A stretch of 64,000 bases of DNA from Eledone cirrhosa (GCA_964016885.1 OZ024742.1:209498001-209562000), one strand, 5' to 3'. Counted from the stretch's first letter, positions 3,013-27,992 are shown. The notes: generated by a model not told the origin, from the sequence alone. Numbers and translations are program-made.

Positions 3013-3047
3013 GTTTAAAATAGAGTGGAAAAGATGGGAAAGACCAC

Positions 3048-5060: not shown

Positions 5061-5274
5061 GTTGTTTTTTGTTTAAAATGAATATTGGGTACAAAACCCC
5101 AATAACTGGTTATTTAACCCCGAAGGGCCAAATAACGGACAGAAAGACCCCTCTCACGAGGAGGAGGGTGTCTTTATCAACAATTTGGTTCAAGTTTTAA
5201 ACAATTTATAATTGTTTTAACGGTTAAAAATTACTATACCTTACAGAGCCGAGCCTCCGTCAACCATGGCATTC

Positions 5275-5316
<42 letters not shown>

Positions 5317-5535
5317 CAAAAAACAAAAATCAAAATCAAAGCAGCACAACAAAAAAAAAACGTAAAGAAAATAAGAATGAAGAGAGAAACAAACGGACGG
5401 ACAGAGAAAGGAAGGGAAAAACTAAGTCAGACATTCGAACACTACATTACAATGAAACTTATGCTTATTCATTTTTGGAGTTTTTTCTGCCTGTTTGTTT
5501 GTTTGTTTATTTGTGTTCGTATACAGCGTGATAAT

Positions 5536-8500: not shown

Positions 8501-9110
8501 CACATTGTATCCGAGTGTAAACACCTAGCCCAGACCCACTATAAAGGCTGGAGACATGATGTGATGGGCAGGGTGATCCACTGGCACCTGTGCAAAGTAA
8601 ACAATTTACCACATTCTGCGAAGTGGTATGAGCATAAGCCAGAGGCGGTGATAGAGAACGATCAGGTGAAGGTGCTGTGGGATTTTAGGATACAGACGGA
8701 CGAGAAACTGGAACACAATAGACCTGAGCTGGTGGTTGTGGACAAAGAAAAAAGATCGTGCCTGATTGTGGATGTGGCCTGCCCATTCGACACGAGAGTG
8801 CAAGAGAAGGAGAGGGAGAAAATTAACCGATACCAGGCCTTAAAGTGGGAGGTAAAAAGGATTTGGAACTGCCATGAAGTCAAAGTGATCCCGATTGTCA
8901 TAGGCGCACTAGGGACTATCTCCAAAAGTTTCCAGGGATGGTTAAAGAAAATCGGCCCCTTCACGCTTTTTGGAACGCTTCAAAAGGCATGCTTGCTGGG
9001 AACAGCAAGAACCCTCCGATATGTCCTGAATATCTGAGGCTGCAGGTAGTGGCTTAATATTCATTCCAACAAACTTTCCAGTAACTAACATCAATGACTG
9101 AGACTCAAGG
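5536..9110 (+). mobile_element. R4/Dong-clade (REL endonuclease) non-LTR retrotransposon, family Dong-A, near full length, inactivated
   Basis: Single-ORF architecture: N-terminal WTKELNRTVMQCY...YRKRM..IW, RT (NYRPITCL, WIDYKKAFD, GIFQGDSLSP), CCHC CRICGEREETVSHIVSEC, RHD, and REL RP(E)LVVVD..IVDVACP. Short 3'UTR followed by an (AAT)n tail. The 5' boundary is approximate. Confidence 0.92.
5670..9037 (+). pseudogene. Dong-A RT-REL polyprotein, disrupted
   Basis: ATG at 5670 is in frame with ORF 5814. Stops at ~5745, 7710 and 8370, and a deletion near 8450. The catalytic FMDD reads FMYN. Confidence 0.88.
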
Positions 9111-9119
9111 AGTAATAAC

Positions 9120-9176: not shown

Positions 9177-9177
<1 letters not shown>

Positions 9178-10203
9178 CTTTCTTTAGTAACCACAAGGGT
9201 TTACACAAAGTAAGACATTAAGGGCAATACAGGACAATACAGGACAATACAGGACGGTACAAATGGGCATTTCTGCGTGTAAAAAAATAAAGACAGAGGA
9301 TGTAATAAAAAAGAAACAATGAAACATTCCCCAATAGGGGCGAGACTTCCGAGGGACATTCGTGTAGAAAGCCCATTAAGAAAGCCACGGTGACCCTGAC
9401 CACCAGGGCAAGTGACCTCTCCCAGTTTTCCACCTTTAATTTACAGGCACATTCACGCGGGCCACTCTTGCCTCTCTCACCCATCTTTCAACAAAATGCT
9501 GGGAAGAGAGCACTTCCCTCTCTACCCTGATTTTCCTTTTCAAATTAAATTTGAAAAAGTTAATCAGGGCATCACCGAAGAGGTAAGTGCTCATCTTCAG
9601 CCCTTTCAGACGCGTCCACCATACTATCTCTTTCGCCATGGCCACCAGAGGGATAAAAATTGCCTGCCCTTCCCGGCTAAAGGAAGAGGGCGGGACATTC
9701 CTCACGATGGACTCAGCTGATAGCTGGATCCGTCCTACATGTGACAGCAGGTGTTCGACATAAACCCACAAGTAGCAATGCTCGGACACTGGACGAGGTC
9801 GTGCAGGACGGTTTCGTCGCCCTGTGGGCATCTCGGACATGCTCGGCTGACGGCACCTCCATGCCTGTAGAGTTTGTCCCGAACTGGCAAAGCTCCTCAG
9901 TAGCACTGCCAGGCAAGGATTTATGGAAGTTGTCCATAGGCCTCGCCCCGAAAGTTCTTCAGAAGAGATTGGCTAGTTGATTTTCGTCGACGCCTAGAGT
10001 TTCCCCAAGTACGTCGTCGCTCTTTCCCTCCACTAATCCTCTATAGAACGCCATGGTGGAGTTTCCACCGATCACATTGCCCGACTGGTCGAGGGCTGTG
10101 AGCGTCTGAAGACATTCCAGTCTCCAAGCGCTCCCTCTCGGTCTTCGCTTGACCCAAGACTGCAGCACCGTCAATGAGACGAGCTGGGGAAATACGTGTC
10201 TAC
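9177..10203 (-). mobile_element. 5'-truncated Tx1 copy (3' ~1 kb: ORF2 C-terminus + 3'UTR)
   Basis: Homologous to 13424-14465; flanked by (AAT)n on both sides. Confidence 0.93.
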
Positions 10204-10280
<77 letters not shown>

Positions 10281-10301
10281 AAGAAGAAGAAGAAGAAGAA
10301 G

Positions 10302-10697
10302 ACAGTAGACCTGACCTGGTGGTTTTGGACAAGGAAAAAAGATCGTGCCTGATTGTGGATGTAGCCTGCCCATTTGACACGAGAGTGCAAGAGAAGGAGG
10401 GGAGAAAATTAACCGATACCAGGACTTTAAGTGGGAGGTAAAAAGGATTTGGAATTGCCATGAAGTCAAAGTGGTCCCGATTGTCATAGGCGCACTAGGT
10501 ACTATCTCAAAAAGTTTCCAGGGATGGTTAAAGAAAATTGGCCCCGCCACGCTTTTTGGAGCGCTTCAAAAGGCATGCTTGCTGGGAACAGCAAGAACCC
10601 TCCGATACGTCCTGAATATCTGAGGCTGCAGGTAGTGGCTTGATATTCATTTAAACAAACTTTCCAGTTAACTAACATCAATGACTGAGACTCAAAG
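10302..10697 (+). mobile_element. Dong-A 3' fragment (REL C-terminus + 3'UTR)
   Basis: Matches 8715-9110; preceded by (AAT)n(AAG)n and followed by (AAT)n. Confidence 0.9.
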
Positions 10698-10770
10698 AAC
10701 AATAATGATAATAATAATAATAATAAGAAGAAGAAGAAGAAGAAGAAGTAGAAGTAGAAGTAGAAGAAGA

Positions 10771-11094
10771 TTGTATCTATAAAAACATTTGAAAAATTGA
10801 GCAAGTATAAGGACCTGGAGATAGAAATTGGAATGATGTGGAAATTGAGAACTAAAACAATACCAGTGGTTGTAGGCGCTCTAGGAGAAATACAAAAGAT
10901 AGTACTAATGGGAACTGCCCATATGCTAAGGAAGATTCTGTTAATATAAGTACATCACAAGTCTAAACACCTAAAGATGCATGTGTGAGTATGTATGTTC
11001 TTTCTTGAACATGGCGGACCTTGTTGTCTCTTGAGGTCACTGGTTGTGACTTGGTGATAACTCGTATGAACATAAAGGCAAGATAAATGCAGCT

Positions 11095-11095
<1 letters not shown>
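10771..11095 (+). mobile_element. Dong-B 3' fragment with internal deletion
   Basis: Matches 27585-27961 minus ~60 bp; (AAT)n tail. Confidence 0.88.
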
Positions 11096-11138
<43 letters not shown>

Positions 11139-11831
11139 TGAAGTGACCGAAACACCATATTTACAAGGAGGAGGCTAGCCCACTGTGCAGGATCTGTGGA
11201 GATAGAGAGGAGACTGTGGCTCACATTGTATCCGAGTGTTAACACCTAACCCAGACTCACTATAAAGGCTGGAGACATGATGTGATGGGCAGGGTGATCT
11301 ACTGGCACCTATGCAAAGTAAGCAATTTACCACATTCTGAGAAGTGGTATGGGCATAAGCCAGAGGCGGTGATAGAAAACGATCTTTTGAAGCTGCTGTG
11401 GGATTTTAGGATACAGACGGACAAGAAACTGGAACACAATGAACCTGACCTGGTGGTTTGGGACAAGGAAAAAAGATCTTGCCTGATTGTGGATGTGGCC
11501 TGCCCATTCGACACGAGAGTGCAAGAGAAGGAGAGGGAGAAAATTAATCGATACCATGACTTAAAGTGGGAGGTAAAAAGGATTTGGAACTGCCATGAGG
11601 TCAAAGTGGTCCTGGTTGTCATAGGCGCACTAGGTACTATCTCAAGGAGGTTCCAGGGTTGGTTAAAGAAAATTGGCCCCGCCCCGCTTTTTGAAACACT
11701 TCAAAAGGCATGCTTGCTGGGAACAGCAAGAACCCTCCGATACGTCCTGAATATCTGAGGCTGCAGGTAGTGGCTTGATATTCATTTAAACAAACTTTCC
11801 AGTTAACTAACATCGATGACTGAGACTCAAA

Positions 11832-11832
<1 letters not shown>
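11139..11832 (+). mobile_element. Dong-A 3' fragment (CCHC + REL)
   Basis: ORF 11282-11758 is homologous to 8426-9037; (AAT)n tail at 11833-11892. Confidence 0.92.
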
Positions 11833-11892
<60 letters not shown>

Positions 11893-11894
<2 letters not shown>

Positions 11895-12908
11895 TTTCTT
11901 TATTAACCACAAGGGTTTACATAAAGTAGACATTAAGGACAGTGCAGGACAATGCAGGACGGTACAAATGGGCATTTCTGCGTGTAAAAAAATAAAGACA
12001 GAGGATGTAATAAAAAAGAAACAATGAAACATTCCCCAATAGGGGCGAGACTTCCGAGGGACATTCGTGTAGAAAGCCCATTAAGAAAGCCACGGTGACC
12101 CTGACCACCAGGGCAAGTGACCTCTCCCAGTTTTCCACCTTTAATTTACAGGCACATTCACGCGGGCCACTCTTGCCTCTCTCACCCATCTTTCAACAAA
12201 ATGCTGGGAAGAGAGCACTTCCCTCTCTACCCTGATTTTCCTTTTCAAATTAAATTTGAAAAAGTTAATCAGGGCATCACCGAAGAGGTAAGTGCTCATC
12301 TTCAGCCCTTTCAGACGCGTCCACCATACTATCTCTTTCGCCATGGCCACCAGAGGGATAAAAATTGCCTGCCCTTCCCGGCTAAAGGAAGAGGGCGGGA
12401 CATTCCTCACGATGGACTCAGCTGATAGCTGGATCCGTCCTACATGTGACAGCAGGTGTTCGACATAAACCCACAAGTAGCAATGCTCGGACACTGGACG
12501 AGGTCGTGCAGGACGGTTTCGTCGCCCTGTGGGCATCTCGGACATGCTCGGCTGACGGCACCTCCATGCCTGTAGAGTTTGTCCCGAACTGGCAAAGCTC
12601 CTCAGTAGCACTGCCAGGCAAGGATTTATGGAAGTTGTCCATAGGCCTCGCCCCGAAAGTTCTTCAGAAGAGATTGGCTAGTTGATTTTCGTCGACGCCT
12701 AGAGTTTCCCCAAGTACGTCGTCGCTCTTTCCCTCCACTAATCCTCTATAGAACGCCATGGTGGAGTTTCCACCGATCACATTGCCCGACTGGTCGAGGG
12801 CTGTGAGCGTCTGAAGACATTCCAGTCTCCAAGCGCTCCCTCTCGGTCTTCGCTTGACCCAAGACTGCAGCACCGTCAATGAGACGAGCTGGGGAAATAC
12901 GTGTCTAC
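11893..12908 (-). mobile_element. 5'-truncated Tx1 copy (duplicate of 9177-10203 with a chimeric 3' end)
   Basis: Identical truncation point and body to 9255-10203; the first ~70 bp instead match the 3' end at 13424. Confidence 0.92.
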
Positions 12909-12985
<77 letters not shown>

Positions 12986-13000
12986 AAGAAGAAGAAGAAG

Positions 13001-13397
13001 ACAGTAGACCTGACCTGGTGGTTTTGGACAAGGAAAAAAGATCGTGCCTGATTGTGGATGTAGCCTGCCCATTTGACACGAGAGTGCAAGAGAAGGAGGG
13101 GAGAAAATTAACCGATACCAGGACTTTAAGTGGGAGGTAAAAAGGATTTGGAATTGCCATGAAGTCAAAGTGGTCCCGATTGTCATAGGCGCACTAGGTA
13201 CTATCTCAAAAAGTTTCCAGGGATGGTTAAAGAAAATTGGCCCCGCCACGCTTTTTGGAGCGCTTCAAAAGGCATGCTTGCTGGGAACAGCAAGAACCCT
13301 CCGATACGTCCTGAATATCTGAGGCTGCAGGTAGTGGCTTGATATTCATTTAAACAAACTTTCCAGTTAACTAACATCAATGACTGAGACTCAAAGA
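13001..13397 (+). mobile_element. Dong-A 3' fragment (duplicate of 10302-10697)
   Basis: Same sequence at offset 2699. Confidence 0.9.
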
Positions 13398-13686
13398 ACA
13401 ATAATGATAATAATAATAATAATGATTTCTTTATTAACCACAAGGGTTTACATAAAGTAGACATTAAGGACAGTGCAGGACAATGCAGGACGGTACAAAT
13501 GGGCATTTCTGCGTGTAAAAAAAACAAAAATAGAGGATGTAACAAAAATAACAATGAAAATAACAATGAAAAATTCCCCAATAGGGGGGAGACTTCGGAG
13601 GGACATTTGTGGAGAAAGCCCAGTAAAAAGCCACAATGACCCTGACCACCAAGGCAAGTGCCCTCTCCCAGTTTTCCACCTTTAGT

Positions 13687-16600
13687 TTACAGATATATAC
13701 TCAGAGTCGGCCCATTCACTCGGGCCATTCTTGCTTCTCTCACCCATCTTTCAACAAAATGCTGGGAAGAGAGCACTTCCTTCTCTACTCTGATTTTCCT
13801 TTTCAAATGAAATTTGAAAAAGTCAATCAGAGCATCACCGAAGAGGTAAGTGCTCGTCTTCAGCCCTTTCAAACGTGTCCACCATACTATCTCTTTCGCC
13901 ATGGCCACCAGACAGATAAAAACTGCCTGCCCTTCCCGGCTAAAGGAGGAGGGCGGGGCAATCCTCACGATAGACTCAGATGATAGCTGGATCCGTCCTA
14001 AACGCGACAGCAGGTGTTCGACATAAACCCACAAGTCAGCAATTTTCGGACACTGGACGAGTGCGTGCAGGACGGTTTCGTCGCCCTGCGCGCATCTCGG
14101 ACATGCCCGGCTGACGGCACCTCCATGCCTGTAGAGTTTATCCCGAACTGGCAAGGCTCCTCGGTAGCACTGCCAGGCCAGAGATTTCTGGAAGTTGTCC
14201 ATAGGCCCTGGCCCGAAGGTTCTTCCGAAGAGATTGGCTAGTTGATTTTCGTCGACGCCTAGAGTTTCCCCAAGTACGTCGTCGCTCTTCCCCTCCACTA
14301 ATCCTCTATAGAACGCCGAGGTGGAGTTTCCACCGATCACATTGCCCGATTGGTCGAGGGCTGTGAGCGCCTGAAGACATTCCAGTCTCCAGGCGCTCCC
14401 TCTCGGTCTTCGCTTGACCCAGGACTGCAGCTCCGTCAAGGAAACGAGCTGGGGAAAAACGCGTCTAGCAAACGGCGACCACACCTGATCACCGTCGAGG
14501 AAGAGGTGGAGATGTCGTAGCCTGAGCGCGTGCCTGCGCATCATCAGCCACGGCATGCCCAGCCCTCCACGTAGCGGGTGTTGACAACAGATGGACCGCC
14601 TGACCATCGGAGCACGTCCCTTCCACAAAAAGCGAAAGAGCAAACGCTCCAGCGCAGTCAGGCGAGGCTTAGGACAAGGTACGACGGTTAGGCGGTAGCA
14701 GATGACAGACGCGATGTACGCGTTAGCCACCTCCGCTCGACCTTTCAGGGATAGCTTCCTCTCCGCCCATTTCTGGGTGAGAGAAGCCACCCTGCTCGTC
14801 ACCTCGTCCCAGTTTTTGTCCGTCTGGAGGTCCGGACCGAACCAGACCCCTAGCAATTTAACCGGTCCGTCCGTCCAGCGCCCGACGACGCTGTTGGACG
14901 GCATGGACCTGCCTCTCCAGGTGCCGAGCTGCAGGCCCACTGACTTTTCCTGGTTGATCATTGCTCCTGTCACCGCTTCGTATTCTCTTAGTGTAGTGCC
15001 GATCGCCTCGATGTGTTTGGCGTTCGACACCACTACGGTGACATCGTCCGCATATGCTGACACGGATCTTCCGCATCCTAGTTCGCGCGGGACTCCCCTC
15101 AACGTCTCCAGTTTGTGCAGTAATGGCTCGAGAGTCAATACGTACAAGAGGGACGAGAGGGGACATCCTTGGCGGACCGAGCGCATGATGTTGAACGGTT
15201 CCGACAGGTGACCGTTCACTCTCACCACAGAGCAGATGTCGCTGTGCATGGCAGCGATCCAGCCTCTGAAGACGGGCCCAAAGCCAGCCGCCCTCAGGAC
15301 TGCCGCTAGGTAACGATGGTCGACCCTATCGAAAGCTTTCGACTGATCTAAATTGATCAAGGACCCACCCGTGCCAGGTTCCCTAGCTACCCTCTCTACG
15401 ATGTATCGCATGAGGTGGAGGTTGTCGTGGATGGATCTGTCGGGAATGGCGCATGTCTGCGCCTCTCCCACCAGACCACCAACGACAAGCGCCAACCTCT
15501 TTGCTAGCACCTTGGCCAAAATCTTAAACTCTGTGTTTAGCAGAGTTATGGGCCGGAAATTGTCTATGTTATCCCCCTTGTTCGGATCCTTTCTCAGCAG
15601 TGCCACCGCTCCTCGGCTCACAGAACTGGGAATTCTCCCGTTCTGTTGCCAGTTGCAGTAGACGTCCGCCAAGAGGCCTCCGAACAAGTCTGGCATCTGT
15701 ACGTAAAGTTCATAGGGCAGACCATCCAAACCAGGCGATTTACCCCTTGTGCAGCCAGTCATTGCCTCCCTTACTTCAGCGGCTGTTATCGGCTTTTCGC
15801 AACACTTCGCCTCAGTGGCCGAGAGCCGCGGCAGTCCGTCGAGGTAGACACTAAAGTCCATCCCTCTACCCGGCCCCCCGCTGCCCCCGAACAGCTGAGC
15901 GAAGTGTCGCTGAAAAGCTTCACACATTTGCCCGGGATCGAGTAGCATGCGCCCGTCGTGGTCCACCAAAGACCGGATCGTGGCTTTGTTGCCACGACGC
16001 GCCTCCGCCACTCGGGCCCATTGAACGGCTTTCGTCCCCTCGTGTCTGAGAGCACGCACCCTAGCTCTGACAACGCAGCCTTCGTGCTTTGCATTGAAGA
16101 ATTGGTCAAGGGCCAATTTCGCCGCAAGCACGTCGGTCGCAATGCCTTTGCTAAGCGCCTCGTCTAATTTTCTAACTAGTTCTCCCTCTGCTCTATTTTT
16201 CTCTATTGCTAAAGCCTTACTAAACCTAATCGATTCTATTCTAATCGCTCTTTTCAGAGCAAACCACCACTTGTTGTTGACGATGGCCCCCGTCAACGCC
16301 CGCTTAACTAGTTCGCTAATCCGGTCTCTGTAGGCCTTGCGCGCTGGTAAGGACGCGTTTAGCTTCCAGTAGCCGGGTCCTCGTCTATGAAGCCTATCTA
16401 AGTCAAGCACACAGATCACGAATTTGTGGTCCGTGTAGCTGACTATCTTGAATTGTGGACAGCCTATGCTAGACCTATCTATTTCCCTACAAAATACTCT
16501 ATCTAGATATGATCTGGATGACCCTATGCGGTTTGTCCAAGTCCACATTGGCACATTCGGGAAATCCAATCGGTACCTGTCAGACAGTTCAAAACGCCTG

Positions 16601-17106
16601 AGCAGGTTGGTGAGGCTCTTGCACCCTCCACCCCTATCCGCTAATCCCACACAGTCCCAGCGTGCATCTAAGATCCCGTTCCAGTCGCCCACTAACACTA
16701 AAGAGCGCGACGTTCCAAGAAAGGTCTCCAGACGCCGGAAGAAATCAGGCCGCCCTGCTCCTGTCGGGGCATAGACGGCCACTAGCCTGAAAGCTTGCCC
16801 GTCTCCGCTGGTCACGTCCAGCACCACCAGCTTACCCTCTGGGTCCAGGAAGATGGCCCGTATGGCGAGATCCAAACCTCTCCGAAAAAGCACAGCAACT
16901 CCTCCACCCGATCCAGGACGGCTGGGAGATGCGTACACATCGTAGCCGCCGAAGATCGGTGCGAAGGCCCGTGCTTCGGAGATTCTGGTCTCGCTGATGG
17001 CCACTACATCTATGTTTAGTGACCTGAGGTCGTTGAGCAGGTGACCCTGCTTCCATGACGACCCCAAGCCACGCGCATTTATGCTGCCTATTCTGAGTGA
17101 GGTCAT
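13687..17106 (-). CDS. Tx1 ORF2p: APE endonuclease, reverse transcriptase, C-terminal CCHC (1139 aa)
   Basis: Uninterrupted ORF with all APE and RT motifs including YADD, and a C-terminal CPRCAQGDETVLHALVQC. Confidence 0.96.
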   Translation of the reverse strand: MTSLRIGSINARGLGSSWKQGHLLNDLRSLNIDVVAISETRISEARAFAPIFGGYDVYASPSRPGSGGGVAVLFRRGLDLAIRAIFLDPEGKLVVLDVTSGDGQAFRLVAVYAPTGAGRPDFFRRLETFLGTSRSLVLVGDWNGILDARWDCVGLADRGGGCKSLTNLLRRFELSDRYRLDFPNVPMWTWTNRIGSSRSYLDRVFCREIDRSSIGCPQFKIVSYTDHKFVICVLDLDRLHRRGPGYWKLNASLPARKAYRDRISELVKRALTGAIVNNKWWFALKRAIRIESIRFSKALAIEKNRAEGELVRKLDEALSKGIATDVLAAKLALDQFFNAKHEGCVVRARVRALRHEGTKAVQWARVAEARRGNKATIRSLVDHDGRMLLDPGQMCEAFQRHFAQLFGGSGGPGRGMDFSVYLDGLPRLSATEAKCCEKPITAAEVREAMTGCTRGKSPGLDGLPYELYVQMPDLFGGLLADVYCNWQQNGRIPSSVSRGAVALLRKDPNKGDNIDNFRPITLLNTEFKILAKVLAKRLALVVGGLVGEAQTCAIPDRSIHDNLHLMRYIVERVAREPGTGGSLINLDQSKAFDRVDHRYLAAVLRAAGFGPVFRGWIAAMHSDICSVVRVNGHLSEPFNIMRSVRQGCPLSSLLYVLTLEPLLHKLETLRGVPRELGCGRSVSAYADDVTVVVSNAKHIEAIGTTLREYEAVTGAMINQEKSVGLQLGTWRGRSMPSNSVVGRWTDGPVKLLGVWFGPDLQTDKNWDEVTSRVASLTQKWAERKLSLKGRAEVANAYIASVICYRLTVVPCPKPRLTALERLLFRFLWKGRAPMVRRSICCQHPLRGGLGMPWLMMRRHALRLRHLHLFLDGDQVWSPFARRVFPQLVSLTELQSWVKRRPRGSAWRLECLQALTALDQSGNVIGGNSTSAFYRGLVEGKSDDVLGETLGVDENQLANLFGRTFGPGPMDNFQKSLAWQCYRGALPVRDKLYRHGGAVSRACPRCAQGDETVLHALVQCPKIADLWVYVEHLLSRLGRIQLSSESIVRIAPPSSFSREGQAVFICLVAMAKEIVWWTRLKGLKTSTYLFGDALIDFFKFHLKRKIRVEKEVLSSQHFVERWVREARMARVNGPTLSIYL

Positions 17107-17141
17107 GTTTAAAATAGAGTGGAAAAGATGGGAAAGACCAC

Positions 17142-19241
17142 TTACCGTATTTTTGGTAGAGGAGGGATGGTTTTTACATCCCTTTTCACTTGATCGTCTG
17201 GTGAAGGGACCGTTGAATCGTCCCTTCGGCTGGTCGTCGGCTCTTCTAAGAGAATGTCTGAATATACTCTTCGATTAATGGTTCCTCCTAGGTCCCTGAA
17301 ATCACCAACTGCGTTGGGGAATTTCGTTTTAATGTTTGTGTATTGTTTCTGTGCTATTTTTAGCAGTCTTATGTTAGTTGGCGTTTTGATTGGTGCTGGT
17401 ATTATGTAGTCCTGTTGTGAAATGTCTGTGTGTTCAATTATGTAAGTCATTAGTTTCTTGTTGTGTGTGTTTATTGCCGTGCATTTGTTTTTCTGGGGGT
17501 GGGGTGTGGTTCTGCTATTTTCTTGTCGTTGTTGCTGGGTGTGTGTGTTTTGTTGTTGTGTTTGCGATGTTGGTGCTTGTGGTGGTGGTGTTGAAGGTGT
17601 TGTTGGCGGTGGGGTTGTCGCCGGTGGTGATGGTGGTGCTGGTGTGGGTGGTGATGGTGTTGGTGGTGTTGCTGCTGTGGGTCTCTTTGCAGTAGACTTT
17701 ACCCTTTTCTCATTTCTTTCCTCCCTTTTCAAAGGCGACGATGCGCTGCTTCTGCGTTTGTGCCTTCTTGAGACCTTTTGCCATCCCTCTCCCACCTCAC
17801 ACTCCATGTCTGATTCTGTAAGGTCGGGGAGGGGTACCAGCTCCACTCTTTCACTTGTTGTTGTTGGTGATGTTTGCACTGGAGTCTCTGTTGCAGCTGC
17901 ATTTGGTATTGCTGTTGTTGTTGTTAATATTTCCACTGCTGCTGCTGTCTTTGATTTCCGTGGAGTGGGTATGGGTGTCACGGACCTATCGTTCCTGGTT
18001 GCCGCTTGTCCTGTTGCTGGTAGCCGTGGAACCGGATTCGGGAGGAGGGGGGTTTTCTCCTTTCTCAGGGTCTTCTCGTTGCAGAAGGCCCTGAGGTGAG
18101 TCTTCGATCCACAGCGAAAGCATTTCGGGCGTTTGCCCTCAACACTTATGGGCAGTTGAGTGCCGTTATCGAAGTCTATCACATCCGGGATAGCTTCGAT
18201 GCACTCCTGGTTGGTTTGGATTAGCATCTCAATGGAGGAGCCGACCCAATCTTCTCTTACTTTTTTCTGTACTTGCAGTACAGTTGTTTTGTCCTCGATT
18301 CCGACGAGGACAGACGCGGCCAGCCAAGAAGGGGTCATTCCGGGGGGGACGTGGGTCAGTTTGACCCTCACAATTTTTTGCCCGCAGTAGGAGGGCACCA
18401 ACACCATTTCCTCGCTCCTTAGGGTCACTACTGATTGGGCCTTTGCCTCCTGGGGTGTGGCAAAAAGTACGTCTACGGTGGCGTATTTTTTGCCTCGGGT
18501 GATGTGCGTTTTCCTCTGCCACACAGACCCCAAGGCTTTTTGTATTTGGGCCTCTGTGGCTCTTTCCACCCTACGGGATTTTGTACTTACTGTACGGTAC
18601 GTGACCGTACAGTGCTCTTGGGTTTCGAAAAAATTTTTCGCTGCCTTGCAGATTGCTCGGTGTCCGTTCTTTGTCACCATCTTCTTCGCTTCCTCTAATT
18701 CCTCATTTGTTATGAGGATTGTTTCCAGGTTTTTCGCAATACCTGCAAATGAGATTGGTTTTTCTCTGCTGTTGTTGTTGTCGTCAGAGCTGCTGGTACT
18801 TTTGTTGTTGCTGCAGGTACTACGACTACTGCCTCCGCCGCTGTTGCTGTGGTTGTTGTTGGTGTTGCTGCTGCTAATGCTGTTGTTGTTTATGCTGCTG
18901 GTGATGCTGTTGCGGCTGCTACTGTTGTTTTCATTGTCACTGTTGCTGTTGTTATTACGGCTGCTACTGCTATTATTCCTGACGTCAGACGAATGAACTG
19001 GGTTTTCGTATTTCCCGCACACCTGTTTCGTCGCTGTCGTCGTCGTCGTGGAGAAACCTTGCACGCTTTGCACGAGACTTTTCTTTTCTTTCGTCGCTTG
19101 CGAAAGAGAAGGTAGGGAGAGAGACACATTTAAAGAAGGGAGGGAGAGAGACAATCTTCTCTCTCCTGTAGTGATGATTGAGGAAGAAGAAGACGGAATG
19201 AGTGGGAGTGACGTATGAAATTTTTTTTTTTTGGTAGCCAT
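17142..19241 (-). CDS. Tx1 ORF1p (nucleic-acid chaperone, CCHC knuckle), ~699 aa
   Basis: ATG at 19241 (MATKKK, same start as copy 1); CFRCGSKTHLRAFC; Ser/Asn and Pro/Thr low-complexity tracts; stop 35 nt before the ORF2 ATG. Confidence 0.9.
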   Translation of the reverse strand: MATKKKKFHTSLPLIPSSSSSIITTGERRLSLSLPSLNVSLSLPSLSQATKEKKSLVQSVQGFSTTTTTATKQVCGKYENPVHSSDVRNNSSSSRNNNSNSDNENNSSSRNSITSSINNNSISSSNTNNNHSNSGGGSSRSTCSNNKSTSSSDDNNNSREKPISFAGIAKNLETILITNEELEEAKKMVTKNGHRAICKAAKNFFETQEHCTVTYRTVSTKSRRVERATEAQIQKALGSVWQRKTHITRGKKYATVDVLFATPQEAKAQSVVTLRSEEMVLVPSYCGQKIVRVKLTHVPPGMTPSWLAASVLVGIEDKTTVLQVQKKVREDWVGSSIEMLIQTNQECIEAIPDVIDFDNGTQLPISVEGKRPKCFRCGSKTHLRAFCNEKTLRKEKTPLLPNPVPRLPATGQAATRNDRSVTPIPTPRKSKTAAAVEILTTTTAIPNAAATETPVQTSPTTTSERVELVPLPDLTESDMECEVGEGWQKVSRRHKRRSSASSPLKREERNEKRVKSTAKRPTAATPPTPSPPTPAPPSPPATTPPPTTPSTPPPQAPTSQTQQQNTHTQQQRQENSRTTPHPQKNKCTAINTHNKKLMTYIIEHTDISQQDYIIPAPIKTPTNIRLLKIAQKQYTNIKTKFPNAVGDFRDLGGTINRRVYSDILLEEPTTSRRDDSTVPSPDDQVKRDVKTIPPLPKIR

Positions 19242-19515
19242 GTTTTTTTGTTTAAAATGAAATTTTGGGTACAAAACCCCAATAACTGGCTATTTAACCC
19301 CGAAGGGCCAAATAACGGACAGAAAGACCCCTCTCACGAGGAGGAGGGTGTCTTTATCAACAATTTGGTTCAAGTTTTAAACAATTTACAATTGTTTTAA
19401 CGGTTAAAAATTACTATACCTTACAGAGCCGAGCCTCCGTCAACCATGGCATTCAATAATAATAATAATAAGAAGAAGAAGAAGAAGAAGAAGTAGAAGT
19501 AGAAGTAGAAGAAGA

Positions 19516-19839
19516 TTGTATCTATAAAAACATTTGAAAAATTGAGCAAGTATAAGGACCTGGAGATAGAAATTGGAATGATGTGGAAATTGAGAACTAA
19601 AACAATACCAGTGGTTGTAGGCGCTCTAGGAGAAATACAAAAGATAGTACTAATGGGAACTGCCCATATGCTAAGGAAGATTCTGTTAATATAAGTACAT
19701 CACAAGTCTAAACACCTAAAGATGCATGTGTGAGTATGTATGTTCTTTCTTGAACATGGCGGACCTTGTTGTCTCTTGAGGTCACTGGTTGTGACTTGGT
19801 GATAACTCGTATGAACATAAAGGCAAGATAAATGCAGCT

Positions 19840-19840
<1 letters not shown>
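19516..19840 (+). mobile_element. Dong-B 3' fragment (duplicate of 10771-11095)
   Basis: Same sequence at offset 8745. Confidence 0.88.
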
Positions 19841-19883
<43 letters not shown>

Positions 19884-20576
19884 TGAAGTGACCGAAACAC
19901 CATATTTACAAGGAGGAGGCTAGCCCACTGTGCAGGATCTGTGGAGATAGAGAGGAGACTGTGGCTCACATTGTATCCGAGTGTTAACACCTAACCCAGA
20001 CTCACTATAAAGGCTGGAGACATGATGTGATGGGCAGGGTGATCTACTGGCACCTATGCAAAGTAAGCAATTTACCACATTCTGAGAAGTGGTATGGGCA
20101 TAAGCCAGAGGCGGTGATAGAAAACGATCTTTTGAAGCTGCTGTGGGATTTTAGGATACAGACGGACAAGAAACTGGAACACAATGAACCTGACCTGGTG
20201 GTTTGGGACAAGGAAAAAAGATCTTGCCTGATTGTGGATGTGGCCTGCCCATTCGACACGAGAGTGCAAGAGAAGGAGAGGGAGAAAATTAATCGATACC
20301 ATGACTTAAAGTGGGAGGTAAAAAGGATTTGGAACTGCCATGAGGTCAAAGTGGTCCTGGTTGTCATAGGCGCACTAGGTACTATCTCAAGGAGGTTCCA
20401 GGGTTGGTTAAAGAAAATTGGCCCCGCCCCGCTTTTTGAAACACTTCAAAAGGCATGCTTGCTGGGAACAGCAAGAACCCTCCGATACGTCCTGAATATC
20501 TGAGGCTGCAGGTAGTGGCTTGATATTCATTTAAACAAACTTTCCAGTTAACTAACATCGATGACTGAGACTCAAA

Positions 20577-20577
<1 letters not shown>
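19884..20577 (+). mobile_element. Dong-A 3' fragment (duplicate of 11139-11832)
   Basis: Identical 158-aa ORF at 20027-20503; (AAT)n tail. Confidence 0.92.
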
Positions 20578-20644
<67 letters not shown>

Positions 20645-20886
20645 TTTTCTTTATTAACCACAAGGGTTCACATAAAGTAGACATTAAGGACAGTACAGGA
20701 CAATACAGGACGGTACAAATGGGCATTTCTGCGTGTAAAAAAACAGAGGTTGAAATAAAATAACAAAGAAAAATTCCCCAATAGGGGGGAGACTTCCAAG
20801 GGACATTTGTGGAGAAAGCCCATTAAAAAACCACAGTGGCCCTGACCACCAGGGCAAGTGCTCTCTCCCAGTTTTCCACCTTTGAT

Positions 20887-23800
20887 TTACAGACACATAC
20901 TCAGAGAAGGCCCATTCATTCGGGCCATACTTGCTTCTCTCACCCATATTTCAACAAAATGCTGGGAAGAGAGCACTTCCCTCTCTACCCTGATTTTCCT
21001 TTTCAAATGAAATTTGAAAAAGTTAATCAGGGCATCACCGAAGAGGTAAGTGCTCGTCTTCAGCCCTTTCAAACGTGTCCACCATACTATCTCTTTCGCC
21101 ATGGCCACCAGACAGATAAAAACTGCCTGCCCTTCCAGGCTAAAGGAAGGGGGCGGGGCAATCCTCACGATGGACTCAGCTGATAGCTGGATCCGTCCTA
21201 CACGTGACAGCAGGTGTTCGACATAATCCCACAAGTCAGCAATGCTCGGACACTGGACGAGTGCGTGCAGGACGGTTTCGTCGCCCTGCGCGCATCTCGG
21301 ACATGCCCGGCTGACGGCACCTCCATGCCTGTAGAGTTTATCCCGAACTGGCAAAGCTCCTCGGTAGCACTGCCAGGCCAGGGATTTCTGGAAGTTGTCC
21401 ATAGGCCCCGGCCCGAAAGTCCTTCCGAAGAGATTGGCTAGTTGATTTTCGTCGACGCCTAGAGTTTCTCCAAGTACGTCGTCACTCTTCCCCTCCACCA
21501 ATCCCCTATAGAACGCCAAGGTGGAGTTTCCACCGATCACATTGCCCGATTGGTCGAGGGCTGTGAGCGCCTGAAGACATTCCAGTCTCCAAGCGCTCCC
21601 TCTCGGTCTTCGCTTGACCCAGGACTGCAGCTCCGTCAAGGAGACGAGCTGGGGAAAAACGTGTCTTGCAAACGGCGACCACACCTGATCACCGTCGAGG
21701 AAGAGGTGGAGATGTCGTAGCCTGAGCGCGTGTCTGCGCATCATCAGCCACGGCATGCCCAGCCCTCCACGTAGCGGGTGTTGACAGCAGATGGACCGCC
21801 TGACCATCGGAGCGCGTCCCTTCCACAAGAAGCGAAAGAGCAAACGCTCCAGCGCAGTCAGGCGGGGCTTAGGACAAGGTACGACGGTCAGGCGGTAGTA
21901 GATGACGGATGCGATGTACGCATTCGCCACCTCCGCTCGACCTTTCAGGGATAGCTTCCTCTCGGCCCATTTCTGGGTGAGAGAAGCCACCCTGCTCGTC
22001 ACCTCGTCCCAGTTTTTGTCCGTCTGGAGGTCTGGACCGAACCAGACCCCTAGCAATTTAACCGGTCCGTCCGTCCAGCGCCCGACGACGCTGTTGGACG
22101 GCATGGACCTGCCTCTCCAGGTGCCGAGCTGCAGGCCCACTGACTTTTCCTGGTTGATCATTGCTCCTGTCACCGCTTCGTATTCTCTTAGTGTAGTGCC
22201 GATCGCCTCGATGTGTTTGGCGTTCGACACCACTACGGTGACATCGTCCGCATATGCTGACACGGATCTTCCGCATCCTAGTTCGCGCGGGACCTCCCTC
22301 AACGTCTCCAGTTTGTGCAGTAATGGCTCGATAGTCAATACGTACAATAGGGACGAGAGGGGACATCCTTGGCGGACCGAGCGCATGATGTTGAACGGTT
22401 CCGAAAGGTGACCGTTCACTCTCACTACAGAGCAGATGTCGCTGTGCATGGCAGCGATCCAGCCTCTGAAGACGGGCCCAAAGCCAGCCGCCCTCAGGAC
22501 TGCCGCTAGGTAACGATGGTCGACCCTATCGAAGGCTTTCGACTGATCTAAATTGATCAAAGACCCACCCGTGCCAGGTTCCCTAGCTACCCTCTCTACG
22601 ATGTATCGCATGAGGTGGAGGTTGTCGTGGATGGATCTGTCGGGAATGGCGCATGTCTGTGCCTCTCCCACCAGACCACCAACGACAAGCGCCAACCTCT
22701 TTGCTAGCACCTTGGCCAAAATCTTGAACTCTGTGTTTAGCAGAGTTATGGGCCTAAAATTATCTATGTTATCCCCCTTGTTCGGATCCTTTCTCAGCAG
22801 CGCCACCGCTGCTCGGCTCACAGAGCTGGGAATTCTCCCGTTCTGTTGCCAGTTGCAGTAGACGTCCGCCAAGAGGCCTCCGAACAAGTTTGGCATTTGT
22901 ACGTAAAGTTCATAGGGCAGACCATCCAAACCAGGCGATTTACCCCTTGTGCAACTAGTCATTGCATCCCGTACTTCAGCGGTTGTTATCGGCTTTTCGC
23001 AACACTCCGCCTCAGTGGCCGAAAGCCGCGGCAGTCCGTCGAGGTAGACACTAAAGTCTATCCCTCGATCCGGTCCGCCACTGCCCCCGAACAGTTGAGC
23101 GAAGTGTCGCTGAAAAGCTTCACACATTTGCCCGGGATCGAGTAGCATGCGCCCGTCGTGGTCCACCAAAGACAGGATCGTGGCTTTGTTGCCACGACGC
23201 GCCTCCGCCACTCGGGCCCATTGAACGGCTTTCGTCCCCTCGTGTCTGAGAGCACGCACCCTAGCTCTGACAACGCAGCCTTCGTGCTTTGCATTGAAGA
23301 ATTGGTCAAGGGCCAATTTCGCCGCAAGTACGTCGGTCGCGATGCCTTTGCTAAGCGCCTCATCTAATTTTCTAACTAATTCTCCCTCTGCTCTATTTTT
23401 CTCTATTGCTAAAGTCTTACTAAACCTAATGGACTCTATTCTAATTGCTCTTTTCAGAGCAAACCACCACTTGTTGTTGACGATGGCCCCCGTCAACGCC
23501 CGCCTAACTAGTTCGCTAATCCGGTCTCTGTAGGCCTTGCGCGCTGGTAAGGACGCGTTTAGCTTCCAGTAGCCGGGTCCTCGTCTATGAAGCTTATCTA
23601 AGTCAAGCACACAGATCACGAATTTGTGGTCCGTGTAGCTGACTATCTTGAATTGTGGACAGCCTATGCTAGACCTATCCATTTCCCTACAAAATACTCT
23701 ATCTAGATATGATCTGGATGACCCTATGCGATTTGTCCAAGTCCACATTGGTACATTCGGGAAATCCATTCGGTACCTGTCAGACAGTTCAAAACGTCTG

Positions 23801-24306
23801 AGCAGGTTGGTGAGACTCTTGCACCCTCCTTCCCTATCCACTAATCCCACACAATCCCAGCGTGCATCTAAGATCCCGTTCCAGTCGCCCACTAACACTA
23901 AAGAGCGGGACGTTCCAAGAAAGGTCTCCAGACGCCGGAAGAAATCAGGCCGCCCTGCTCCTGTCGGGGCATAGACGGCCACTAACCTGAAAGCTTGCCC
24001 GTCTCCGCTGGTCACGTCCAGCACCACCAACTTACCTTCTGGTTCCAGGAAGATGGCCCGTATGGCAAGATCCAAACCTCTCCGAAAAAGCACAGCAACT
24101 CCTCCCCCCGATCCCGGACGGCTGGGAGATGCGTACACATCGTAGCCGCCGAAGATCGGTGCGAAAGCCTGTGCTTCGGAGATTCTGGTCTCGCTGATGG
24201 CCACTACATCTATGTTTAGTGACCTGAGGTCGTTGAGCAGGTGGCCCTGCTTCCATGACGACCCCAAGCTACGCGCATTTATGCTGCCTATTCTGAGTGA
24301 GGTCAT
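20887..24306 (-). CDS. Tx1 ORF2p, subfamily B (1139 aa)
   Basis: Uninterrupted and collinear with 13687-17106, with about 35-40 substitutions counted by eye. Confidence 0.95.
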   Translation of the reverse strand: MTSLRIGSINARSLGSSWKQGHLLNDLRSLNIDVVAISETRISEAQAFAPIFGGYDVYASPSRPGSGGGVAVLFRRGLDLAIRAIFLEPEGKLVVLDVTSGDGQAFRLVAVYAPTGAGRPDFFRRLETFLGTSRSLVLVGDWNGILDARWDCVGLVDREGGCKSLTNLLRRFELSDRYRMDFPNVPMWTWTNRIGSSRSYLDRVFCREMDRSSIGCPQFKIVSYTDHKFVICVLDLDKLHRRGPGYWKLNASLPARKAYRDRISELVRRALTGAIVNNKWWFALKRAIRIESIRFSKTLAIEKNRAEGELVRKLDEALSKGIATDVLAAKLALDQFFNAKHEGCVVRARVRALRHEGTKAVQWARVAEARRGNKATILSLVDHDGRMLLDPGQMCEAFQRHFAQLFGGSGGPDRGIDFSVYLDGLPRLSATEAECCEKPITTAEVRDAMTSCTRGKSPGLDGLPYELYVQMPNLFGGLLADVYCNWQQNGRIPSSVSRAAVALLRKDPNKGDNIDNFRPITLLNTEFKILAKVLAKRLALVVGGLVGEAQTCAIPDRSIHDNLHLMRYIVERVAREPGTGGSLINLDQSKAFDRVDHRYLAAVLRAAGFGPVFRGWIAAMHSDICSVVRVNGHLSEPFNIMRSVRQGCPLSSLLYVLTIEPLLHKLETLREVPRELGCGRSVSAYADDVTVVVSNAKHIEAIGTTLREYEAVTGAMINQEKSVGLQLGTWRGRSMPSNSVVGRWTDGPVKLLGVWFGPDLQTDKNWDEVTSRVASLTQKWAERKLSLKGRAEVANAYIASVIYYRLTVVPCPKPRLTALERLLFRFLWKGRAPMVRRSICCQHPLRGGLGMPWLMMRRHALRLRHLHLFLDGDQVWSPFARHVFPQLVSLTELQSWVKRRPRGSAWRLECLQALTALDQSGNVIGGNSTLAFYRGLVEGKSDDVLGETLGVDENQLANLFGRTFGPGPMDNFQKSLAWQCYRGALPVRDKLYRHGGAVSRACPRCAQGDETVLHALVQCPSIADLWDYVEHLLSRVGRIQLSAESIVRIAPPPSFSLEGQAVFICLVAMAKEIVWWTRLKGLKTSTYLFGDALINFFKFHLKRKIRVEREVLSSQHFVEIWVREASMARMNGPSLSMCL

Positions 24307-24339
24307 GTTGAAAAGGAGTGGAAAAGATGGGAAAGACCA

Positions 24340-26324
24340 CTTACCTTACTTCTCGTAGGGGAAGGACGGTTTTTCCATCCTTTTCACTGCTTGTGGCCTC
24401 CTCAGGAAGTATGTCCTTATAAATCCTCCTGGAGAGTGCTTATCAGAAGTCTCCGATGTCTTTGGGGAATTTTTGTTTTAGTGTCATGTACGTTTTCTGT
24501 GTGATGCGAGTGATTTGTATGTGTGGAGGTGGTGTGAATTTTGGGGTTGTTGTGTAGTCTTTTTCTGTGATGCTGGTGTTGTGTTTGATGTAGTGTAATA
24601 ATTGCTTGTTGTTCAAATTTAATGCTGTGTAGTGTGTATCGTTTTGGTTGTTTTGCTTTGTTTGCGTTTGTTGTGGGTTTGTTTCTGTTTCGCATTTTGG
24701 TGACTTTTGTGGTGTAGGTGATGGTGGTGTTGGAGTTAATGATGGTGATGGTGTTGGTGTTTGGGTTGATGGGGTTGGTGATGCTGGTGTGGATGGTGGC
24801 ATATCTGTCCTAACTTTTTTGTTTCTTAGTTTATTTGTTTCCCTCTGTATTTTGTTTTTGGAGGGGGAAGGAAGAGAATTTTTTCTTTTTTGGTTTCTTT
24901 TTTTTTTTCCGGATATCGTTTCCCACTCCTCGTCGTCACAATCTGTCTCCAGTTGTGATAGGCCGGGGAGTGGAAAATCCTCCACAGCCGTTAGTTTTGG
25001 TTGTAGTGTGGTGGATGGTGTAGGCGCTGGTGCTAGTTCTGAAGCGTTGGGTGGTGGTGGTGTTGGTTTTGCTGGTGGTGGTAGTGGTGTTGGTTTTGCT
25101 ACTGTTGCTGGGGTTGTTGCTGTTATAGTTGCTTCTGTTGTTGCTGCTACAGTTGTTGCTGCCATCTCTGCTACTGGTGGTGTTGATGGTTGTGTCACTG
25201 GGGTGGGTAGGAGAGGTGGCCTCAACCTTTTAGCCTGAGGGCAGAAAGCCCTTAGGTGGGTTCCTTCACCACAAACGACACACCTAGGTCTTCTGCCCTC
25301 GACAATTACCGTGAGGTGGCTGCCGTCAGTGAGGTCTATTACCTCTGGGATCTCCTCAATGCTTTTTTGGTCCGCTTGGATCAGGAGCTCCATCCCAGAT
25401 CCGGACCAGTTTTCCTGCTTTTCTTTTGCTACTGCTATTATTTTCGTGTTGGCTTCGATGCCGGCGAGGACGGCCGCTATTAGCCAGGGAATTTCGATGG
25501 CCGGTGGAACGTGGGTCACCCTGATCTTTACGAGTCTCTGGCCACAATAGCTTGGGACGAGTGTGAGGTCGTCACTTTTTAATGGGGCCATGGAGTGTTC
25601 TCTAGCCTCCTCTGGTGTTTCAAAGAACACATCCACGGTTCCATACTTTTGCCCACGTCTGATGTGGGTTTTTCTTGCCCACACATGTCCCAAAGCTTTT
25701 TGGATTTGGGACTCGGATGCCCGTTCCACTCGGCGCGATTTTACATTTATTGTTCTATACGACACGGTGCATAGGCGCCGATGCTCCATTTTATTAGGTG
25801 GGGGGTGAGGCTGACCCTGTACCCATCTTTCTTTACCATTTGTTTGGCATTTTCTAAATCTTCTTGAGTTACGGTAAATGCTTCGAATTGTTTTGCTACT
25901 CTGGCGAAACTGAGGGGGGGGTTATAATGTCATTGTTGTTGTTGTTGCTATCGTTAATATTAATTTTAGTTTCAGTTGTGGTGGTGGTGACGTCAGTCGT
26001 CTTTGGTGGGGAAGAGTCCATTTTGCTTGATTTCATTTCGACGTCACGAGTTAATTTATTTTTTTCTTCTTTTGTTTCTGTTGTCGCGGTGGTGGTGGTG
26101 GTGGTGGTTGTCGCGGTGGTGGTGGTGGTGGAGGCTTTAACACCTGCAGTCATTGGTAATGGCGGGAAATGAATGTCTGCCTGAGACAAATTTAAAATAT
26201 TGCTACTGCTTATATTTTTTTTTGTGTTGGCAAACGTAGTAACATTTACAATGGTGGTGTCGGTGTGAGGTGTTATTTTGTGAGGAAGGCTTTCAGCTGC
26301 TTCGTGCAGAGGTGAAGTAGCCAT
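24340..26324 (-). pseudogene. Tx1 subfamily B ORF1, split by frameshifts/stops
   Basis: Pieces 25896-26324 and 24443-25789; CVVCGEGTHLRAFC knuckle; frame breaks at G runs (~25800, ~25915) and TGA TAA near 24443. Confidence 0.82.
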
Positions 26325-26533
26325 TTTTTTTCAAAGAAATTTTTTGATAATAATAAAAGTTAAAATTTTGGGCACAACGCCCCAATCTTTTTAGGTGTCC
26401 TTTTCGGAAAACAATGTATGTGTGCTTATAAACAGTTAACAATAAAATTTTCCATAAATGGCAATTTTTAAACAAACGGAAATAACAAACCTTTGCGGAG
26501 CTCACGATAATACGATTTCCTACGTAGGTCGCC

Positions 26534-27961: not shown

Positions 27962-27962
27962 A

Positions 27963-27992
<30 letters not shown>

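What the first reader, a model, noticed from the sequence alone, without database searches (positions are those of the whole stretch)
13409..19469. Built-in empty versus filled site gives a 15-bp (AAT)5 target duplication and no poly(A) for the intact Tx1
Seen: unit 1 of the duplication reads GAT(AAT)5(AAG)8TAG at 10707-10751. Unit 2 reads GAT(AAT)5-[6031-bp Tx1]-(AAT)5(AAG)8TAG, a net gain of exactly 15 bp. All four visible Tx1 3' ends lack a poly(A) tail; three end AATAAA + 6 nt (one has ACTAAA) directly into ATT repeats. Inference: a target as short as 5 units is sufficient. The insertion post-dates the duplication, so it is very recent and the element is probably active. Priming may use 3' (AUU)n read-through RNA pairing with the nicked (AAT)n strand rather than poly(A).
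Basis: partly seen in the sequence, partly recalled or inferred. Interest (0 to 1): 0.75.

Follow-up and report, generated by a model that had tools for sequence, protein, structure and literature searches.

The report
AAT-targeting LINE beside a chimeric duplication
A young, intact jumping gene that inserts only into AAT repeats and has no poly(A) tail sits in one copy of a 2.6-kb tandem duplication, and the duplication's joint carries the same element's tail, suggesting that an aborted insertion made the duplication.

Summary
The counts are right: empty site GAT(AAT)5(AAG)8TAG; filled site with a 6031-bp element between two (AAT)5; net gain 15 bp; no poly(A) at 4 of 4 3' ends. The element is an L1-group (Tx1-like) LINE with intact ORF1 and ORF2, nested antisense in the AAT tails of R4/Dong-like elements. 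The nearest named relative is from an octopod.

Three inferences are overstated. 15 bp is TSD plus any RNA-copied repeats, so it is an upper bound. The target is an imperfect 9-unit tract, not a bare five. The insertion need not post-date the duplication.

The two 2.64-kb units differ by 0 substitutions, but the Tx1 3' end joining them (11893) is a chimera. It matches the intact element at 8 of 8 diagnostic sites in its first 62 bp, then the old truncated copy at 77 of 77.

Best reading: a 60-100-nt cDNA primed on an AAT tract invaded the older copy upstream and copied the DNA between. That mechanism is proposed for human L1 in tumours; my searches found no report for Tx1, nor an AAT-targeting Tx1. 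It rests on one locus, with no reads.

The parts
13424..19454 (-). Full-length intact L1-group/Tx1-like LINE (copy F), 6031 bp; starts with G directly after (ATT)5 and ends AATAAA-GAAATC
17142..19241 (-). ORF1, 699 aa, with CCHC knuckle CFRCGSKTHLRAFC at residue 374; core resembles ZCCHC3-type RNA-binding/zf-CCHC clusters by language-model features (scores 0.88-0.93); no Pfam hit at E<=0.001
13687..17106 (-). ORF2, 1139 aa: APE endonuclease (PF03372), RT with YADD (PF00078), C-terminal zf-RVT (PF13966)
13424..13686 (-). 3' UTR, U-rich, with short 10-bp tandem repeats and AATAAA 6 nt from the end; no poly(A); no significant fold of the last 152 nt (z -0.63)
13409..13423 (+). (AAT)5 at the 3' junction (primer side); part of the imperfect tail AAC AAT AAT GAT (AAT)5 of a truncated R4/Dong-like element
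19455..19469 (+). (AAT)5 at the 5' junction, followed by (AAG)8 TAG
10698..10751 (+). Empty site AAC AAT AAT GAT (AAT)5 (AAG)8 TAG in duplication unit 1
9250..11892 (+). Duplication unit 1 (2643 bp; left edge lies within about 9250-9287)
11955..20643 (+). Duplication unit 2, containing copy F; 0 substitutions against unit 1; (AAG)15 vs 17 and (AAT)22 vs 20
11893..11954 (-). Duplication joint: 3'-terminal 62 bp (up to about 100) of F type, attached to (AAT)20 at 11833-11892; inferred new cDNA
11955..11992 (-). Switch window: 30-38 bp identical between F and the old truncated copy; inferred site of strand invasion
9177..10205 (-). Older 5'-truncated copy T1 (about 8% diverged from F, ACTAAA end) between (AAT)19 and (AAT)15(AAG)17; inferred invaded template
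20644..26533 (-). Copy G: open ORF2 96.7% identical to F, but a different 5' half (ORF1 core 55% identical, frame broken); between (AAT)22 and (AAT)19
1..5274 (-). Copy F0, about 98% identical to F with the same 5' end; ORF1 ends early and ORF2 has a premature stop; its 3' end lies outside the window
5311..9119 (+). Broken near-full-length R2-superfamily (R4/Dong-like) element ending in AAT repeats; truncated relatives at about 10302-10700, 11139-11832, 13001-13399 and 19884-20577; a second family at about 10767-11096, 19512-19841 and 26591-28310

Best explanation
A recently active L1-group (Tx1-like) non-LTR retrotransposon targets (AAT)n. Here the repeats are mostly supplied by the 3' tails of R4/Dong-like elements on the opposite strand.

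Shown: domain content, open ORFs, every end in an AAT tract, no poly(A), a 15-bp net gain, a 2.64-kb duplication with no substitutions, and a chimeric joint.

Inferred, insertion of F: the APE endonuclease nicks a T/A step in the AAT strand. The freed (AAT)n 3' end pairs with AUU repeats that read-through leaves just behind the element's 3' end (probably followed by poly(A), which is then not copied). A second nick at most 15 bp away completes the insertion. My estimates: repeat-pairing priming about 0.7; TSD exactly 15 about 0.6.

Inferred, the duplication: a second F-type RNA was primed on the (AAT)n at 11833-11892. After 62-100 nt the cDNA left the RNA and annealed to the homologous 3' end of the older copy T1, 2.7 kb upstream, through 30-38 identical bases. 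It was extended on chromosomal DNA back to the starting tract and rejoined. The duplication is thus an aborted insertion product, in effect a giant target duplication.

Order: F either landed in unit 2 afterwards (about 0.55-0.6), or was already present on the sister or homologous chromatid used as template (about 0.4).
For: The joint at 11893 matches F at 8 of 8 T1/F differences up to 11954, and T1 at 77 of 77 afterwards (Fisher p 2e-11). It matches F at 4 of 4 sites where F and the right-hand neighbour G differ, so it is not a plain G x T1 crossover. The chance of 62 or 93 identical bases to F at the T1-body divergence of 8.3% is 0.005 or 0.0003. The joint begins exactly at the element's 3' terminus on an (AAT)20 tract, as TPRT predicts. 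A crossover between F itself and T1 would put (AAT)5 and the short R4 piece left of the joint; instead the left flank is the other R4 fragment with (AAT)20. The units show 0 substitutions in 2637 aligned bases.

Analogies (passages only). L1 cDNA leaving the RNA and pairing with nearby homologous DNA, SDSA-like, and duplication-type retrotransposon bridges: bioRxiv 10.1101/2024.08.27.596794. L1-bridged tandem duplication via the sister chromatid: PMC7058536. R1Bm needing downstream target sequence, and SART1 AGG annealing: PMC7265360. The I element ends in TAA repeats: PMC3747384. A 16-bp expected TSD for the probably Tx1-mobilised SINEU-3: PMC4494074.
Against: One locus, assembly only, no reads or RNA. 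A DNA-only route (crossover plus gene conversion, or two template switches through the AAT tract and the 30-38-bp block) gives the same sequence. The model needs two F-type events 1.5 kb apart. The published templated L1 insertions are typically under 250 bp and within 15 bp of the site, smaller than here. No significant 3' UTR structure was found, so how the protein fixes the start of reverse transcription is unexplained. Element termini may be more conserved than the body, which weakens the 0.005/0.0003 figures, though not the 8/8 versus 77/77 switch. Microsatellite slippage can change unit counts after insertion.
Confidence: 0.62

Rival explanations
1. DNA-only origin of the duplication: unequal crossover between the 3' ends of G and T1 followed by gene conversion of the joint from F or another F-type copy; or replication-fork template switching from the AAT tract to an F-type end and then to T1. 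F's own insertion is ordinary TPRT.
For: All copies share orientation and 93-95% identity over about 1 kb. F lies 1.5 kb from the joint. G is itself a recombinant, so exchange among copies happens.
Against: It needs two independent steps whose tracts both end in or before the same 30-38-bp window, with no G-type allele left (0 of 4). The 3' ends of G and T1 were not converted.
Confidence: 0.2
2. Assembly artefact: two haplotypes (empty and filled) mis-joined in tandem, or a mis-polished joint. The empty/filled pair would then be an allelic polymorphism and no duplication exists.
For: Nested near-identical repeats; the units are identical except at two microsatellites; no reads were available.
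Against: Zero substitutions in about 2406 unique bases is unlikely for two random haplotypes: P=0.008 at an assumed heterozygosity of 0.2% and 6e-6 at 0.5% (the rates are assumed, not measured). The switch is sharp with no mixed alleles. The window has no Ns. Neighbouring 3' ends keep private alleles.
Confidence: 0.1
3. One reading: an unrelated duplication came first, F then inserted into a bare 5-unit target with an exact 15-bp TSD, and the duplication has nothing to do with the element.
For: The 5/5 symmetry is simplest with TSD 15 and no added units. Both nicks fall on T/A steps.
Against: It leaves the F-type joint unexplained. The tract is imperfect and 9 units long.
Confidence: 0.05
4. 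The duplicated unit was filled and unit 1 later lost F by recombination between the two (AAT)5 copies; or the cDNA switched to a read-through RNA spanning G to T1 rather than to DNA.
For: Both reproduce the sequence. All elements are co-oriented, so a read-through RNA is possible.
Against: Precise excision through 15 bp is expected to be rare (general knowledge). An RNA-templated copy need not land in tandem with its source.
Confidence: 0.03

Closest known systems
Microsatellite-targeting Tx1-clade LINEs Kibi (TC)n and Koshi (TTC)n; crocodilian Tx1 on (TTCC)n/(TTTC)n (PMC4494074, PMC3812793; passages)
   Same: L1-group APE-RT element with two ORFs inserting specifically into a simple repeat
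   Different: The target here is (AAT)n/(ATT)n, which these passages give only for Dong. The host is probably an octopod. Phylogenetic position relative to Kibi/Koshi was not tested. I could not see Fig. 3 or the supplements of PMC4494074, or Repbase, where such a family may already be listed.
Dong/R4 elements targeting (TAA)n (PMC3812793; recently active Dong-R4 and L1-Tx1 families in Octopus vulgaris, PMC13282606; passages)
   Same: Same repeat target; the neighbouring plus-strand elements look like this group (best PDB matches are R2 proteins; PD..D motif)
   Different: The studied element has an N-terminal APE endonuclease, two ORFs and the opposite orientation, so it primes from the other strand of the repeat.
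L1-mediated duplications and SDSA-like templated insertions in human tumours (PMC7058536; bioRxiv 10.1101/2024.08.27.596794; passages)
   Same: A short retroelement 3' end bridges a tandem duplication; the cDNA is proposed to anneal to other genomic DNA
   Different: No poly(A) bridge; the 5' junction uses 30-38 bp of perfect homology inside an older copy of the same family; a non-mammalian Tx1-like element in an assembled genome; size 2.6 kb, between the <250 bp and megabase cases described.
R1Bm, SART1 and the I factor: RNA 3' ends complementary to the target (PMC7265360, PMC3747384; passages; the primary R1Bm paper was not held)
   Same: Target-like sequence at or behind the RNA 3' end is proposed to pair with the nicked strand; SART1 needs only three repeat units
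   Different: Those are R1- and I-clade elements. SART1 copies a poly(A) tail; this family leaves none.

Membership tests
L1 group non-LTR retrotransposon | ORF2 with N-terminal APE endonuclease, RT and C-terminal CCHC, preceded by an ORF1 | tested here: met
   Pfam PF03372, PF00078, PF13966; best PDB match is human L1 ORF2, E 2.7e-52, ahead of R2; two ORFs
Tx1 clade | RT phylogeny groups it with reference Tx1 elements | not testable with these tools
   No named Tx1 reference among the 33 hits or the 120 listed of 1093 hits; the cluster-name look-up could not be made; no tree built
Tx1 clade | Type I ORF1 (RRM and/or zf-CCHC) rather than Transposase_22 (PMC5203782) | tested here: inconclusive
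   CCHC knuckle present; Atlas feature hits to zf-CCHC/ZCCHC3 RNA-binding clusters at 0.88-0.93, a lead only; Pfam finds neither RRM nor Transposase_22
Tx1 clade | Target-sequence preference (common in the clade, not universal) | tested here: met
   9 of 9 visible ends abut (AAT)>=5
Kibi / Koshi families | Insertion into (TC)n or (TTC)n | tested here: not met
   All ends are in AAT/ATT; (AAG)n/(CTT)n lies beyond the 5' AAT tract at F and T1 but touches no element end
Dong/R4 clade (for the studied element) | Single ORF with a C-terminal restriction-like endonuclease | tested here: not met
   Two ORFs and an APE domain
Dong/R4 clade (for the plus-strand neighbours) | R2-superfamily RT, C-terminal PD..D nuclease, TAA-repeat flanks | tested here: inconclusive
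   RT best matches R2 proteins, E 4e-22; PDLVVWD motif; AAT tails; the second family's fragment gave 0 PDB hits; clade not tested by tree
Retrotransposon-mediated tandem duplication | Element 3' terminus primed at the endonuclease target at one breakpoint | tested here: met
   The joint starts at the exact 3' end on (AAT)20
Retrotransposon-mediated tandem duplication | Bridge derived from an active source, distinct from both flanking copies | tested here: met
   F type at 8 of 8 sites versus T1 and 4 of 4 versus G
Retrotransposon-mediated tandem duplication | Proof of passage through RNA (poly(A) tract or non-templated bases at the bridge) | tested here: inconclusive
   No poly(A), but none of the family's ends has one; a DNA donor cannot be excluded
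Retrotransposon-mediated tandem duplication | Read-level support for the junction and the copy gain | not testable with these tools
   No reads available

The most novel reading that the evidence does not exclude
Two cDNAs from the same active AAT-targeting Tx1-like element acted in one germ cell. One inserted in full on one chromatid. The other was primed on the empty sister, switched after under 100 nt onto an old copy on the filled chromatid, and fixed a 2.6-kb duplication that holds the empty and the filled site side by side. Target-specific LINE clusters in microsatellites would then grow not only by insertion but by homology-completed abortive TPRT that also multiplies their own targets and the R4/Dong elements that supply them.
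Probability: 0.2. Interest if true: 0.72.

Novelty: new variant of a known kind. Interest (0 to 1): 0.5.

Why it matters
Insertion mechanics cannot normally be read for elements that target pure microsatellites, because target and tail are the same sequence. This locus bounds the gain at 15 bp and offers an intact, testable element with a simple target, an L1-group enzyme that apparently does not prime on poly(A).

If the joint is real, it is a natural, probably heritable snapshot of cDNA strand invasion producing a segmental duplication, a process described mainly for human L1 in tumours. It also shows two unrelated LINE clades sharing one repeat from opposite strands. The parts are known from other systems; the combination and the target are what is new.

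Tried and rejected
RNA fold of the 3'-terminal 152 nt: not better than shuffles (55 of 200 fold as well, z -0.63).

Relatives with flanking DNA: the bacterial/archaeal genome collection gave 9 pattern matches, 0 confirmed.

Naming of homologues by cluster look-up could not be made. Pfam on ORF1 gave nothing significant. The Atlas held no structure model of ORF1. No structure was predicted and no tree was built, for lack of named Tx1 references.

A simple G x T1 crossover was rejected (0 of 4 G alleles at the joint). An F x T1 crossover was rejected (wrong left flank). The idea that T1's own end is the newcomer was disfavoured: that end is about as far from F (6 substitutions and 2 indels in 73 bp) as the T1 body is.

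Literature: nine searches turned up no AAT/TAA-targeting Tx1 and no Tx1-mediated duplication; one search returned 0 papers. The R1Bm primary paper was not held and the supplements of PMC4494074 could not be read. PMC1950540, PMC9004415, PMC9115989, PMC3649969 and PMC11203168 (passages) added nothing on TSD length or tails of Tx1.

Full report
Observation. The empty site reads GAT(AAT)5(AAG)8TAG at 10707-10751. The filled site has (AAT)5 at 13409-13423, a 6031-bp minus-strand element at 13424-19454, then (AAT)5(AAG)8TAG from 19455. The gain besides the element is 15 bp. The four visible 3' ends (9177, 11893, 13424, 20644) pass from AATAAA (ACTAAA at 9177) plus 6 nt directly into (ATT)n, with no A-tract in 4 of 4. 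All 9 visible element ends abut one of the 14 (AAT)>=5 tracts, which cover 585 of 64000 bp and all lie on the plus strand in the first 28.4 kb. The descriptive part of the finding is confirmed.

The element. Copy F has a 699-aa ORF1 with a CCHC knuckle and a 1139-aa ORF2 with APE endonuclease, RT (YADD) and zf-RVT. The best solved relatives are human L1 ORF2 (E 2.7e-52), ahead of R2. In the RT region the nearest named protein is from Argonauta hians (73% identity), followed by many unnamed proteins at about 50% and turtle- and teleost-named proteins at roughly 37-43% (120 of 1093 hits listed, from 8000 scored candidates). An octopod host is therefore an inference. The O. vulgaris annotation lists recently active Dong-R4 and L1-Tx1 families (PMC13282606, passages). 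The ORF1 core resembles zf-CCHC/ZCCHC3 RNA-binding clusters by features only. That fits the Type I ORF1 associated with Tx1 (PMC5203782, passages), but clade membership was not tested by tree. F is the only copy with both ORFs open. F0 (1-5274, about 98% identical) has an early ORF1 end and an ORF2 stop. G (20644-26533) has an open ORF2 but a different, broken 5' half. T1 (9177-10205) is a 1-kb older fragment.

The setting. The plus-strand pieces between the copies are 3' parts of R2-superfamily elements (best PDB match R2; PD..D motif) that end in AAT repeats. They resemble the TAA-targeting Dong elements (PMC3812793, passages). Every visible Tx1-like 3' end sits in such a tail. F's target is the imperfect tail AAC AAT AAT GAT (AAT)5 followed by (AAG)8, so 'five units suffice' is not shown. 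It is not implausible either: SART1 needs three telomeric units (PMC7265360, passages).

The TSD. Target and possible tail are the same repeat, so 15 bp is the sum of TSD and any units copied from either RNA end. Eleven simple combinations, with TSDs from 0 to 15, fit. Fifteen needs no added units, puts both nicks on T/A steps at the tract borders, and is close to the 16-bp TSD expected for SINEU-3, which is probably mobilised by a Tx1 group (PMC4494074, passages). I put it at about 0.6. At the joint described below, the primer side has 20 units against 22 in the copy next to G. That suggests nicking inside a tract, or later slippage.

The tail. With AATAAA 6 nt upstream of the first ATT, cleavage 10-30 nt downstream (recalled rule) falls in AUU units 2-8. 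The RNA would carry a few AUU units and then probably poly(A). Pairing of the nicked (AAT)n end with those units would start reverse transcription inside the RNA and leave poly(A) uncopied. Analogues are R1Bm, which needs downstream target sequence, and SART1 AGG annealing, and the TAA-ending I element (PMC3747384, passages). This is inference. The 3' UTR shows no significant fold.

The duplication. Unit 1 (9250-11892) and unit 2 (11955-20643 without the insert) align over 2637 bases with 0 substitutions and two 6-bp microsatellite differences. Outside these limits identity falls to 93-95%. The 95% upper bound on divergence is about 0.12%, so F is young on any ordering. The joint is the Tx1 3' end at 11893. 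Of 85 differences between T1 and F along this fragment, it follows F at the first 8 of 8 (11894-11954) and T1 at the remaining 77 of 77 (p 2e-11). It follows F at 4 of 4 sites that separate F from G, the copy at the right border. The switch lies in 30-38 bp shared by F and T1. A crossover of G with T1 would leave G alleles; a crossover of F with T1 would leave a different left flank. The simplest account is one aborted TPRT: an F-type RNA primed on the (AAT)n tail, 62-100 nt of cDNA, invasion of T1 2.7 kb upstream, DNA synthesis back to the starting tract, and rejoining. Such cDNA switching to nearby homologous DNA and L1-bridged tandem duplications are proposed for human tumours (bioRxiv 10.1101/2024.08.27.596794; PMC7058536; passages), although the templated insertions there are usually under 250 bp.

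The order. If it was a sister or homologue that already carried F, the same sequence results and F came first or in the same cell. Zero substitutions argue against a random homologue under assumed heterozygosities of 0.2-1%, which leaves 'later' (about 0.55-0.6) or 'same cell or recent haplotype' (about 0.4).

Against my reading. This is one locus in an assembly without reads. Crossover plus gene conversion, or fork template switching, gives the same letters (0.2). A mis-join cannot be excluded (0.1).

Novelty. Microsatellite-targeting Tx1 families are known for TC, TTC, TTCC and TTTC. Tail-less, target-pairing priming is known in other clades, and retrotransposon-mediated duplication is known for L1. 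Nine searches showed no AAT-targeting Tx1 and no Tx1-made duplication. However, Repbase, subscription papers, and Fig. 3 and the supplements of PMC4494074 were out of reach and may list such a family. All papers were seen as selected passages or search listings, none whole. Verdict: real feature, new variant of a known kind, interest 0.5.

Noticed in passing
window 17093-17145, minus strand (also F0 near 3000-3050 and G near 24290-24345): GTAAGT overlapping the ORF1 stop, a pyrimidine tract and CTCAG in ORF2 codon 5 define a 53-nt candidate intron (phase 2/2) whose removal would join ORF1 and ORF2 in frame. It may be chance: GTAAGT occurs twice in F, and no fused protein stood out.
   Followed up: partly
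window 20644-26533 (switch near 24388): Copy G is a recombinant: ORF2 is 96.7% identical to F, while the ORF1 core is 55% identical and the 5' UTR did not align. This looks like a 5'-half swap between subfamilies.
   Followed up: partly
window 10251-10301, 10725-10770, 12956-13000, 19470-19515: (AAG)n tracts occur at 5'-truncation points of R4/Dong-like elements, directly after (AAT)n. They may be made during 5' joining. Both F and T1 have their 5' AAT tract followed by (AAG)n.
   Followed up: no
window 27651-28338: 343-bp head-to-tail duplication of the second R4-like family's 3' end, separated by (AAT)10, 96% identical. Copies at 10767-11096 and 19512-19841 carry an internal deletion of roughly 55 bp relative to it.
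   Followed up: no
window 1-28370: All 14 (AAT)>=5 tracts of the window lie in this nested cluster and on one strand. The cluster ends at (AAT)20 at 28311-28370 and runs off the left edge.
   Followed up: yes
window 20966-21061 (and counterparts near 9503-9598, 12208-12303): Imperfect inverted repeat (about 72% over 100 bp) within the 3' part of ORF2; not folded.
   Followed up: no
window 17142-17274: The ORF2 frame is open for 56 codons upstream of its ATG and overlaps the end of ORF1, which leaves frameshifting or reinitiation open.
   Followed up: no
window 43521-44708 and 33844-34995: A PIF1 helicase fragment (Helitron-like, recalled association) and another RT fragment.
   Followed up: no
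window 51823-55987: A second, older tandem duplication of about 2 kb (83% identity) bounded by (ACAT)n, with a weak RT match nearby at 56827-57219.
   Followed up: no
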